A stretch of DNA of 64,000 nt from the NCBI RefSeq assembly GCF_009914755.1, contig NC_060925.1; one strand, 5' to 3'. The translations under genes and the position numbers were made by a program. The notes under the pieces are model-generated. The model worked only from the letters and a program-made list of their open reading frames with translations, had not been told where the DNA came from and searched no databases. The first letter of the stretch is position 1. Every line of letters begins with the position of its first letter. Shown here in pieces: positions 32,839-34,933 of this stretch. The stretch comes from the human T2T-CHM13v2.0 reference genome, Homo sapiens.

Positions 32839-32935
32839 CGGCAGGATCCCGTATAAGGATATGTACAAATTAGTGCGGGTGATCTCGCCTCCTCTGGGCC
32901 TGGGAGAGAACTGCCCCTACAGGGTGGCTTGCAAG
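32839..32935 (+). CDS. CACNA1E: Alternative, mutually exclusive EF-hand exon (e37a/EFa paralogue): (C)[32 protein letters not shown]
   Basis: ttacag|C GGC..TGCAAG|gtttgc, 97 nt. Same length and phase as 34837-34933, no stops, shared SPPLGLG..CP..VA.K; YKDMY and RVACK match Cav2.1 EFa. Confidence 0.88.
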
Positions 32936-33215
32936 GTTTGCCTCCCAGTCCCCAGCCATGATCTGCCGTGGGATGCAACATCTAACCCCTCCTCTCTGTC
33001 CTCTGCTCCACCACCACTGCGCCACATGAGGGAACCTTCATGTTGCTTTCCTTTGAGTTTAAAGAGGTCCAAACCCTTCCAGAACCAGCAGCTGTTACAT
33101 AAAGATAAGGGCATACTTTGGGGAAAAGGCAGAAGAGTTAAGAACTTCATGTGAAGACCAGTGTGATCGCTCTCTTCACATGCACACACTCATGTATGTG
33201 TGTATATGCACATGT

Positions 33216-33260
33216 ACACACACACACACACACACACACACACACACACACACACACACA
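33216..33260. repeat. (AC)n microsatellite between the two EF-hand exons
   Basis: Perfect AC run of ~22 units. Confidence 0.95.
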
Positions 33261-34836
33261 GGTCCACCTTAGTCTGTATAGTTAATCAGAGGGACCTCTC
33301 CTTTCTCTATAGAATGCAGAAATATTTTTAACCCAGCAAAAGAATTCTGGCTTCTTTTCACTGGAGATGGAGAAGCCTCATTTTAGCAAAAGAGCCTCAT
33401 CGTCCCATATGTAATGTATGGAGTATGATCCTAGTGATCCCACCCTCCCAGCTCCTGGATGGTCTGGTCAGAATGACTATGAAAGCTATAGGACAGAAGG
33501 GGTGAGAAACAAGGAATTAGGGCAAGAGGTGAGAGTAGGTAAAAGAGGCATGGATTTGGTGCTGTGTGGAAGAAGGTAGTAATAGCTCAGAGAGTCTGGG
33601 AAGATCACAGTGAATGAAGCACTACTGAGAGAGTCCCTACCTTAGGGTCCTGCCATGGGTTGCTGTGAGGGATCTGAGGGAGCTGTCATAATTTCCAAGT
33701 CACTTCTTGTCAGTTACACCAAGGATATTGTTCAGGGGTGAGTAGGACCTCCCTGCTCAAATCTGCCATACCCAGGGAATTCTCTATATCCCAATGGCTC
33801 TACTAAGCCCCTATGTGAGGCCAAGCCTGCTAGGTAAGGAACCCTCTCCTGGTGCAAGTGGAGGGAAGCATGGGCTCCCTGGGGCATAGCACTGCCCAGG
33901 CAGCTGGAAGATGACCTAGGCTCAGGAAGGATGCCAGCCTGGACAATGGGATAGAGCTGGCCTGGGATGGTGACACGGTGATTCCATACTCAGGAGGCTG
34001 GACAGCTGCCTCTGCTGAGACTCTTTAAACTCCACCCTGGTGAAACCCGCAGCCGCATGTGGGAGAGCTGGGGAGGGTAGCATGGCATGCAAGATGCTCT
34101 TCCTCCTCCTGTTTTTGTTTCTTCTGTCCCCAGCATGCCATTGACCTGGCACATGCTGGGGAATAAAGAGCAGTCTTGTCCACAGAGCCAGGTGGAAGCA
34201 ACGGGGCCAACTCTTTGAGCAGCAAGCACAGCCCACCACCTTCAGTGCAAGACGCCGCCTCCTGCTGCACACACACACCAGAGGGGGGATACACGACGTT
34301 CTGCCTGTGGGTTCAGTGGAGAACAGCCTGACTTCCAGGCCAGCGCCCCAGCCGGGGTCAGAAACTCCAACCCATGGCTGGAGCACCGTCTATCCGGTTT
34401 ATACCACTCACACACAGCCCTGGGAATTGAAAATAAGCTGTGTTGTATTGGGGAGGGATGAAGTGAACAGGGAAGTCAGGGGAATGCTAATCGAGGAGAA
34501 AATGAGACCCCGTGACTGTTCCCATGGAGAGTCATAGGGACTGAAGGTTGCCACCAGTTTTCCCGGGTCTGTGTGGGGCGTGATATAAACCGCACCAGGA
34601 TGGAGTCATGTCTACGATTTGCCTTGATTAACAGGTTTCCTATTCTTTTCCCGTTTGTCCATTTTGTTTTGTTTTTCTTCTCCTGTTTTCTGTATTTTGT
34701 TCGTTTTTGCTCTCTGGGAATGCCTATTCTCCTCTCCTATCTGTCTGCATCCTTCTCCCCACTTCCTTCTCCTTTCCCTGCCACCCCACTGCCCCGCTAA
34801 CCCACCCCATCCCAACTCACCACCCTCCATGAGCAG

Positions 34837-34933
34837 TGGCCGCATCCATTACACTGAGATGTATGAAATGCTGACTCTCATGTCACCTCCGCTAGGCCTC
34901 GGCAAGAGATGTCCCTCCAAAGTGGCATATAAG
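34837..34933 (+). CDS. CACNA1E: Exon ~39, canonical EF-hand exon (e37b-type): (C)[32 protein letters not shown]
   Basis: gagcag|T GGC..TATAAG|gtagac, 97 nt; matches the reference Cav2.3 protein as I recall it. Confidence 0.98.

What the first reader, a model, noticed from the sequence alone, without database searches (positions are those of the whole stretch)
32839..34933. Intact duplicated EF-hand exon: a Cav2.3 'e37a/e37b' mutually exclusive pair
Seen: a 97-nt exon at 32839-32935 with polypyrimidine tract, CAG acceptor and GT donor, and the same phase as the canonical exon 1.9 kb downstream. It encodes [33 protein letters not shown] versus [33 protein letters not shown]. Established: CACNA1A (EFa/EFb) and CACNA1B (37a/37b) have this pair, which alters Ca-dependent facilitation, current density and G-protein/opioid inhibition. 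The Cav2.3 reference protein uses only the downstream copy. Inference: a functionally distinct Cav2.3 isoform exists. Its donor (AAG|gtttgc) is weak, suggesting rare or cell-type-restricted use. The homologue may already be noted in comparative splicing literature, but it appears poorly characterised and could be missed in CACNA1E variant screening.
Basis: partly seen in the sequence, partly recalled or inferred. Interest (0 to 1): 0.8.

Follow-up and report, generated by a model that had tools for sequence, protein, structure and literature searches.

The report
Known alternative exon 37a of CACNA1E
This is the already described and already annotated alternative "exon 37a" of the human R-type calcium-channel gene CACNA1E, an ancient, well conserved twin of the usual exon 37b; what it does to this channel has apparently never been measured.

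Summary
Window 32839-32935 is an intact 97-nt exon with an AG acceptor and a GT donor. It has the same phase as the reference exon at 34837-34933 and is its only homologue in the window. Using either exon alone keeps the CACNA1E reading frame. Using both or neither gives an early stop.

The upstream copy is the "a-type" exon. It is 26/32 identical to the CACNA1A a-type peptide and 18/32 to its own b-type partner. It is 29-32/32 identical in 46 CACNA1E gene models from mammals, birds, turtles, a crocodile and squamates, and 33 of these join it directly to exon 38. A teleost cacna1e-like protein also carries it.

It is not new. The hub's RefSeq table lists 32839-32935 as an exon of other CACNA1E transcripts. 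Several papers state that exons 37a/37b exist in CaV2.1, CaV2.2 and CaV2.3, and one adds that little is known about their role in CaV2.3.

The "weak donor means rare use" inference is not supported: exon 37b's donor matches the consensus equally poorly. Verdict: real, ordinary, already known; the function remains untested.

The parts
29497..29624 (+). CACNA1E exon 36 (numbering of the CaV2 literature), the shared upstream exon; it ends in phase 2 (..TG|gtgcgt)
   Evidence: hub RefSeq table
32819..32838 (+). Polypyrimidine tract and CAG acceptor of exon 37a
   Evidence: 76% pyrimidine at -20..-4; cctttaCAG|C
32839..32935 (+). Exon 37a (EFa, a-type), 97 nt; encodes the last base of a Cys codon plus P0001; an alternative exon listed by RefSeq for other CACNA1E transcripts
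   Evidence: hub table
32936..32941 (+). Donor of exon 37a, AAG|GTTTGC (5/9 consensus matches). The first two intronic codons it gives (Val-Cys) recur in nearly all CACNA1E-type genomic ORFs and read-through models
34837..34933 (+). Exon 37b (EFb, b-type), 97 nt; the copy used by the selected RefSeq transcript and by all solved CaV2.3 structures
   Evidence: hub table
34934..34939 (+). Donor of exon 37b, AAG|GTAGAC (5/9 consensus matches)
37089..37194 (+). Exon 38, the shared downstream exon, joined to 37a or to 37b
29655..29668 (+). First arm of a perfect 14-nt intronic complementarity, 31 nt after the exon 36 donor. A lead only; not shown to belong to the system
34948..34961 (+). Second arm of the same complementarity, 15 nt after the exon 37b donor, inside an intron block whose translation is kept in many mammalian genomic ORFs. 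A lead only

Best explanation
Window 32839-32935 and 34837-34933 are the mutually exclusive homologous exons 37a and 37b of CACNA1E (CaV2.3). They come from a tandem exon duplication that predates the split of the three vertebrate CaV2 genes. Each encodes the same 32-33 residues of the EF-hand-like/GPHH module of the proximal C-terminal domain. A transcript must take exactly one of them. Both are 97 nt (3n+1), so taking both puts a stop codon six codons into 37b, and taking neither creates TGA across the 36/38 junction. Both stops lie more than 1 kb upstream of the last exon junction, where nonsense-mediated decay is expected to remove the RNA (inference from the standard 50-55-nt rule). Exon 37b is the default form. 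Exon 37a gives a second full-length channel that differs at 14 of 32 positions in a module that sits against the III-IV linker and next to the calmodulin-binding IQ region. The exchange most likely tunes calmodulin-dependent or kinase-dependent regulation, or surface density, as in CaV2.1 and CaV2.2. Shown here: the anatomy, the frame logic, the homology, the conservation and the prior annotation and description. Inferred: decay of the wrong combinations, and any functional difference.
For: Anatomy and phase. Only two copies in the window, cross-match E = 1.6e-10. Third-position excess of differences (20 of 34). Frame test: a-only and b-only both reach the normal stop at 52242; a+b stops at 34855, 1114 nt before the last junction; neither stops at 29623, 1037 nt before it. 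Both peptides match Pfam GPHH PF16905, positions 15-46 of 54, at 48.3 and 51.4 bits against a cut-off of 26.8. a-type identity: P0001 is 26/32 identical to the a-type peptide of proteins named CACNA1A and 18/32 to P0002. Conservation of 37a: of the 120 listed hits (133 found), 46 are in CACNA1E context at 29-32/32 identity (5 at 32, 36 at 31, 1 at 30, 4 at 29). The 46 include models named as mammals, birds, turtles, a crocodile, lizards and a snake, and no fish or amphibian name; I did not check every name. 33 of the 46 are joined to exon 38 sequence. Teleost: P0268 is 94.3% identical over 1621 residues to a protein that UniRef names R-type alpha 1E subunit a of Astyanax mexicanus; it carries an a-type exon (26/32) between CACNA1E-type flanks. 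Conservation of 37b: 51 models at 32/32 (those whose names I read are amniotes) and 36 at 29-30/32 (those read are frogs, teleosts, sharks and a chimaera). Prior knowledge: the hub RefSeq table lists 32839-32935 as an exon of other transcripts. Passages read: PMC7555146, PMC6802325, PMC7235277, PMC8205089, PMC9741552 (plus one supplement table) and PMC4494069. All name the pair in CaV2.3/CACNA1E. CTD contact with the III-IV linker: passages of PMC9708679.
Against: No RNA data could be examined here. Use of 37a in human tissue rests on the hub's RefSeq line and on other species' gene models, many of them automatic predictions. The protein searches only saw proteins of 2000 residues or fewer, so full-length CACNA1E isoforms of about 2300 residues were excluded and the models counted are partial or truncated. 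12 of the 46 a-type models do not continue into exon 38 but read into the intron or elsewhere, against 6 of 87 for b-type. Part of 37a usage may therefore be non-productive. A rat thalamus long-read catalogue of Cacna1e (PMC12465193; abstract, sections 19 and 21, and a term search) never mentions a mutually exclusive pair, exon 37 or an EF-hand. No functional comparison of CaV2.3 with 37a versus 37b turned up in any of the 8 literature searches that ran. The two papers credited with the CaV2.3 pair (Gray 2007, Thalhammer 2017) are not held and were not read.
Confidence: 0.93

Rival explanations
1. Exon 37a is used mainly as an entry into truncated or non-productive transcripts. On this view it is spliced to exon 36, but its donor is often not used, so the RNA runs into the intron. 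That RNA would encode a channel cut off before the IQ domain or would be degraded. The exon would then act more as a dosage or truncation switch than as the source of a second full-length channel.
For: 12 of 46 CACNA1E-context models with 37a continue into intron-derived or other sequence, against 6 of 87 for 37b. They include rat isoform X14, XP_017168356.1, several bird isoforms and two Podarcis isoforms. In the human window the frame stays open for 72 codons past the donor, and an AATAAA lies at 34162. The donor has T at +3 and +4. A 2026 preprint reports a 'Cacna1e-CLE' cryptic-last-exon peptide in mouse, position not given (passage only).
Against: 33 of 46 models join 37a cleanly to exon 38. 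The count is biased towards truncated models because only proteins of 2000 residues or fewer were searched. The read-through tails differ in length and sequence between species (8 to about 65 residues), so they are not conserved as coding sequence. In contrast, the 32 exon residues are almost invariant and differences between the two copies pile up at third codon positions. The only human model named in the hub table ends the exon at 32935.
Confidence: 0.05
2. The upstream copy is a dead or decaying duplicate (pseudo-exon) that happens to keep an open frame and splice-site-like flanks.
For: It is absent from the selected RefSeq transcript and from every solved CaV2.3 structure (hub table). A rat long-read study does not mention it.
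Against: 29-32/32 residue identity in 46 CACNA1E models, with named sources from mammals to squamates, and 26/32 in a teleost cacna1e-like protein. No frameshift or stop in 21 CACNA1E-type genomic ORFs spanning it. Third-position excess of differences. A full Pfam GPHH match. RefSeq annotates it (hub table).
Confidence: 0.01
3. The pair is real but previously undescribed for CaV2.3. This is the novelty implied by the first reader's interest score.
For: None found.
Against: Passages in six papers name exons 37a/37b, or a homologous mutually exclusive pair, in CaV2.3/CACNA1E. RefSeq lists the exon (hub table).
Confidence: 0.01

Closest known systems
CACNA1B (CaV2.2) exons 37a/37b
   Same: The same position in the gene family, 97-nt mutually exclusive exons and the same EF-hand-like segment of the proximal C-terminus (passages of PMC7235277, and PMC6802325). 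The PDB CaV2.2 chains carry a b-type peptide that P0002 matches at 39.8 bits.
   Different: In CaV2.2 the a and b forms differ by Tyr versus Phe at the second tyrosine, which decides c-Src-dependent voltage-independent inhibition (passages of PMC3971660). In CACNA1E both exons have Tyr at both positions, and the reference 37b form of CaV2.3 already shows that inhibition through Y1761. No CTCF-like consensus lies in CACNA1E 37a: 4 matches in the window, none in the exon, against 6.75 expected (motif recalled). Cell-type use and function are known for CaV2.2 but not for CaV2.3.
CACNA1A (CaV2.1) exons 37a/37b (EFa/EFb)
   Same: The closest sequence relative of the upstream exon: 26/32 identical to the a-type peptide in 28 proteins with CACNA1A-type flanks (most named CACNA1A; one is named N-type) and 19 genomic ORFs. 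The donor also begins GTNTG, since its read-through starts Val-Trp.
   Different: In CaV2.1, EFa permits Ca2+-dependent facilitation and tighter coupling to release, and disease variants in 37a are known (passages of PMC7555146, and PMC5749111). CaV2.3 is reported not to facilitate (passage of PMC5749111). No test of a 37a form of CaV2.3 was found in the searches listed under Tried and rejected.
Single (non-duplicated) homologous exon of CaV1 L-type channels
   Same: The same Pfam GPHH segment. P0001 matches CaV1.1-1.3 chains at about 28 bits and shares their C-terminal ..RVACK ending.
   Different: CaV1 genes of human have one copy here. The b-type exon is much further from CaV1 (about 18 bits, E about 0.02).

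Membership tests
CaV2 exon 37a/37b mutually exclusive homologous exon pair (EFa/EFb) | Two tandem exons of equal length (97 nt) and equal phase between the shared exons 36 and 38 | tested here: met
   PMC7235277 gives 97 nt for the family
CaV2 exon 37a/37b mutually exclusive homologous exon pair (EFa/EFb) | The two exons are homologous to each other | tested here: met
   18/32 residues and 62/97 bases identical; E = 1.6e-10 within the window; flanks not alike
CaV2 exon 37a/37b mutually exclusive homologous exon pair (EFa/EFb) | Including both or neither breaks the frame; including either one alone keeps it | tested here: met
CaV2 exon 37a/37b mutually exclusive homologous exon pair (EFa/EFb) | The upstream exon groups with a-type exons of the paralogues, the downstream exon with b-type exons | tested here: met
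   a(1E) versus a(1A) 26/32; a(1E) versus b(1E) 18/32. My counts from the printed alignments: a(1E) versus b(1A) 21/32, b(1E) versus b(1B) 23/32 and b(1E) versus b(1A) 22/32. The margin on the b side is small (b(1E) versus a(1A) is 21/32). No tree was built here; PMC7235277 reports such clustering. No protein named CACNA1B with an a-type exon was identified.
CaV2 exon 37a/37b mutually exclusive homologous exon pair (EFa/EFb) | Transcripts really use one or the other | tested here: inconclusive
   33 of 46 a-type and 80 of 87 b-type CACNA1E-context gene models join the exon straight to exon 38 sequence, and RefSeq lists a human transcript with 32839-32935 (hub table). No reads were examined and many of the models are automatic predictions.
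CaV2 exon 37a/37b mutually exclusive homologous exon pair (EFa/EFb) | The two forms differ in channel function or cell-type use | not testable with these tools
   PMC7555146 states that little is known for CaV2.3
Pfam PF16905 GPHH (voltage-dependent calcium channel, IQ-associated) | Score above the curated cut-off (26.8 bits) | tested here: met
   P0001 48.3 bits, P0002 51.4 bits, both on profile positions 15-46 of 54. An a-type bear CACNA1E model has the whole domain at 94 bits, followed by Ca_chan_IQ.

The most novel reading that the evidence does not exclude
CaV2.3 carrying exon 37a is a physiologically distinct R-type channel that has never been recorded. All functional and structural work seen here used the 37b form, including the report that CaV2.3 lacks Ca2+-dependent facilitation. 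The a-type module is closer to the CaV1 and CaV2.1-EFa modules and may alter calmodulin-dependent gating, surface density or kinase control in particular cell types. Variants in it would be overlooked in CACNA1E disease screening because the reference transcript lacks it. A bolder add-on: the perfect 14-nt intronic complementarity that brackets both exons (29655-29668 with 34948-34961) may take part in exon choice.
Probability: 0.45. Interest if true: 0.45.

Novelty: already known. Interest (0 to 1): 0.15.

Why it matters
As a discovery it does not matter, because the exon is annotated and in print. It has practical value in two ways. First, the exon is under strong purifying selection: it is 29-32/32 identical in the 46 CACNA1E models found, whose named sources run from mammals to squamates, and it is present in a teleost. 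Yet it lies outside the selected reference transcript, so variants in 32839-32935 and its splice sites would be labelled intronic in CACNA1E epilepsy testing. In CACNA1A the matching exon does carry disease variants (PMC7555146). Second, the functional comparison of CaV2.3 with 37a versus 37b seems never to have been published, although the same exchange matters in both sister channels.

Tried and rejected
1. Weak-donor argument: rejected. 37a and 37b both match 5/9 consensus positions; 6 of 22 other donors score 5 or less; the reference-transcript exon 38071-38178 has AAG|GTTTGG; and the 37a acceptor tract is richer in pyrimidines than 37b's, 0.76 against 0.65. This is a consensus count, not MaxEntScan, which was not available.

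2. Third copy: one paper lists CACNA1E among human genes annotated with a three-exon cluster (PMC6071210). tblastn finds no third homologous copy in this window.

3. CTCF control as reported for Cacna1b 37a: a recalled CTCF consensus with up to 2 mismatches gives 4 hits in the window, none in or next to 37a, against 6.75 expected. This is a weak test.

4. Long-range RNA pairing: 11 inverted pairs in 29625-37088. Perfect 14-mers: 3 k-mer pairs against a mean of 0.295 in 200 dinucleotide shuffles, with 5 of 200 reaching 3. It is suggestive only. Conservation of the first arm could not be tested, because no stored protein reads through the exon 36 donor.

5. Transfer of the CaV2.2 Tyr/Phe mechanism: rejected for CACNA1E, since both exons have both tyrosines.

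6. Rat Cacna1e long-read paper: it contains none of the terms mutually exclusive, EF-hand, 37a, exon 36 or exon 37. Its supplements were not opened.

7. Papers not held: Gray 2007, Thalhammer 2017 and Lipscombe 2013. What they show for CaV2.3 is known only through citing papers.

9. PMC13086551 mentions Cacna1e isoforms but nothing about this exon.

Full report
**The observation.** At 32839-32935 there is a 97-nt stretch preceded by a pyrimidine-rich tract and CAG, and followed by GT (AAG|GTTTGC). The reference exon at 34837-34933 is also 97 nt (gagCAG|T...AAG|GTAGAC). Exon 36 ends two bases into a codon (..TG|gt), so the first base of either exon completes a Cys codon. The remaining 96 nt translate without stops to P0001 and P0002.

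The two peptides share 18 of 32 residues and the exons share 62 of 97 bases. The equally long flanks share only 36 and 33 of 97. Of the 34 differences within whole codons, 20 are at third positions, the pattern expected if both copies stayed under coding constraint. A tblastn of both peptides against all six frames of the window finds only these two places, with a cross-match at E = 1.6e-10 and everything else at E = 0.7 or worse. The likeness is therefore not chance, and there is no third copy here.

**How the pair works.** I joined the annotated coding exons in a script and swapped the middle exon.
- With 37b alone or 37a alone, the frame runs to the normal stop at 52242.
- With both exons, a stop appears at 34855, six codons into 37b and 1114 nt before the last exon junction.
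- With neither, TGA forms across the 36/38 junction at 29623, 1037 nt before the last junction.

By the usual rule for nonsense-mediated decay (established knowledge, not tested here), both wrong combinations should be degraded. Mutual exclusivity is thus enforced at least by the reading frame.

Both peptides match the same part of Pfam GPHH: PF16905, positions 15-46 of 54, at 48.3 and 51.4 bits against a cut-off of 26.8. This is the EF-hand-like module that precedes the IQ domain. In the human CaV2.3 cryo-EM paper the C-terminal domain binds the III-IV linker and moves together with the AID helix and the fourth voltage sensor (passages of PMC9708679). This gives a plausible route by which a 14-residue change could alter gating. 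That last step is inference.

**Which exon is which.** All solved CaV2.1, CaV2.2 and CaV2.3 chains carry a b-type peptide, and the CaV2.3 chains are identical to P0002 at residues 1757-1788. The upstream peptide is 26/32 identical to the a-type peptide found in 28 proteins with CACNA1A-type flanks. It is only 18/32 identical to its own partner. It is therefore the a-type exon, and the duplication is older than the split between CACNA1A and CACNA1E. P0001 is also clearly closer to the L-type channels than P0002 is (about 28 against about 18 bits).

**Conservation of 37a.** The 32-residue peptide was too short for the large protein search. I therefore sent the window reference 32816-32935, which adds eight in-frame intron codons. 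The search found 133 hits and listed 120. It covered only proteins of 71-2000 residues, which leaves out full-length CACNA1E.

By their flanks, the 120 listed hits divide as follows:

| Class | Count | Identity to P0001 |
|---|---|---|
| CACNA1E context | 46 | 5 at 32/32, 36 at 31/32, 1 at 30/32, 4 at 29/32 |
| CACNA1A-like context | 28 | 26/32 |
| Unspliced genomic ORFs | 40 | 21 CACNA1E-type, 19 CACNA1A-type |
| Fragments | 6 | not scored |

- The named sources I read among the 46 are mammals (rat, bats, bear, seals), many birds, turtles, a crocodile, lizards and a snake. No fish or amphibian name appears among them.
- 33 of the 46 continue straight into exon 38 sequence.
- None of the 21 genomic ORFs has a stop or a shift inside the exon.

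**Conservation of 37b.** The matching search with 37b (window 34814-34933) found 204 hits and listed 120. Of these, 87 are in CACNA1E context and 33 are unspliced genomic ORFs. The 87 divide as 51 at 32/32 (the names I read are all amniotes) and 36 at 29-30/32 (the names I read are frogs, teleosts, sharks and a chimaera). Exon 37b is thus slightly better conserved, but 37a is also under strong constraint.

**Reach beyond amniotes.** I searched the representative library with P0001. P0268 carries an a-type exon (26/32) between CACNA1E-type flanks and exon 38-type sequence. It is 94.3% identical over 1621 residues to a b-type protein that UniRef names R-type alpha 1E subunit a of Astyanax mexicanus. 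The CACNA1E pair therefore reaches at least to teleosts.

**What is already known.** The hub's RefSeq table lists 32839-32935 among the exons of other CACNA1E transcripts. In print (passages read, not whole papers):
- Jaudon et al. [quoted passage not shown]
- Bunda et al. 2019: Cacna1a and Cacna1e contain exons homologous to e37a and e37b (PMC6802325).
- Thalhammer et al. 2020: describe 97-nt exons 37a/37b in all three CaV2 channels and report that the three a-exons and the three b-exons cluster (PMC7235277).
- A 2021 review repeats this (PMC8205089).
- Abascal et al. 2015 list CACNA1A, CACNA1B and CACNA1E as paralogues sharing mutually exclusive homologous exons in the cytoplasmic C-terminal region (PMC4494069).
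- Martinez-Gomez et al. 2022 count one tandem duplicated exon event in each of the three genes (PMC9741552; supplement table).

The primary sources they cite for CaV2.3 (Gray 2007, Thalhammer 2017) are not held. The finding is therefore already known. Eight literature searches ran. None turned up a functional or expression study of CaV2.3 37a, and a rat thalamus long-read catalogue of Cacna1e does not mention the pair (its supplements were not opened).

- The donor of 37a is no weaker, by consensus count, than that of 37b: both match 5 of 9 positions. Six of the 22 other donors in the window score 5 or less, the reference-transcript exon 38071-38178 has nearly the same donor (AAG|GTTTGG), and the 37a acceptor tract is the more pyrimidine-rich of the two. 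Sequence alone therefore does not predict rare use.
- The G-protein/c-Src difference of CaV2.2 rests on Tyr in 37a against Phe in 37b (PMC3971660). In CACNA1E both exons have both tyrosines. The 37b form of CaV2.3 already shows that inhibition through Y1761, which lies in the 37b-encoded segment.
- In CaV2.2, exon 37a does not confer Ca2+-dependent facilitation, and CaV2.3 is reported not to facilitate (PMC5749111). Whether a 37a form of CaV2.3 would do so appears untested.

**Rival readings.**
- A dead pseudo-exon is excluded for practical purposes by the conservation.
- A more serious rival is that 37a often leads to truncated RNAs. 12 of 46 a-type models, against 6 of 87 b-type models, do not continue into exon 38, and most of those 12 read on into the intron. 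However, the length cap of the search favours truncated models, the tails are not conserved, and two thirds of the models splice normally.

**Verdict.** The feature is real, ancient, constrained, annotated and published. Interest is low. The open question is experimental, not genomic.

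Noticed in passing
window 29655-29668 and 34948-34961: A perfect 14-nt complementarity lies between the intron 31 nt after the exon 36 donor and the intron 15 nt after the exon 37b donor, so it brackets both alternative exons. Perfect inverted 14-mers in 29625-37088: 3 k-mer pairs against a mean of 0.295 in 200 shuffles, with 5 of 200 reaching 3. 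The second arm lies in an intron block whose translation recurs in many mammalian genomic ORFs. It may be chance.
   Followed up: partly
window 32936-33154 and 34162: Past the 37a donor the frame stays open for 72 codons, and an AATAAA at 34162 sits in the loop-side arm of a small hairpin (34120-34137 / 34152-34169). Gene models of rat, several birds and Podarcis, and XP_017168356.1, read through this donor and end shortly after. This gives channels cut before the IQ domain.
   Followed up: partly
window 29497-32756: The RefSeq exon of another transcript runs from exon 36 through its donor and ends 82 nt before exon 37a. Its reading frame stops after a short tail. The nearest upstream AATAAA/ATTAAA is at 31123, so no canonical poly(A) signal lies close to its end.
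   Followed up: partly
window 38176-38184: The reference-transcript exon 38071-38178 uses the unusual donor AAG|GTTTGG, almost the same as exon 37a's AAG|GTTTGC.
   Followed up: no
proteins P0243, P0244, P0245 (representative library, unnamed sources): Single ORFs of 121-176 residues hold two tandem copies of the CaV1-type version of this same exon, about 30-60 residues apart. The homologous exon may thus be tandemly duplicated in an L-type-like channel gene of some unnamed organism. A 2022 survey of human and fly channels found no two duplications hitting the same exon.
   Followed up: no
proteins P0003-P0023, P0123-P0147 (sources lgn/ena): Many short ORFs from metagenome-type collections are identical or nearly identical to the human exon plus its intron flanks. 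These are presumably vertebrate DNA carried in such assemblies. They served here as unspliced genomic copies.
   Followed up: partly
P0001 versus P0002 against PDB: The a-type peptide scores about 28 bits against CaV1.1-1.3 chains and the b-type about 18 bits. Exon 37a therefore keeps more of the L-type-like sequence, including the ..RVACK ending.
   Followed up: partly
bioRxiv 10.64898/2026.01.30.702498: This preprint reports a mouse 'Cacna1e-CLE' (cryptic last exon) peptide supported by one of two tests. Its position in the gene is not given in the passage read, and the preprint's supplements are closed. It may or may not be one of the read-through tails above.
   Followed up: no
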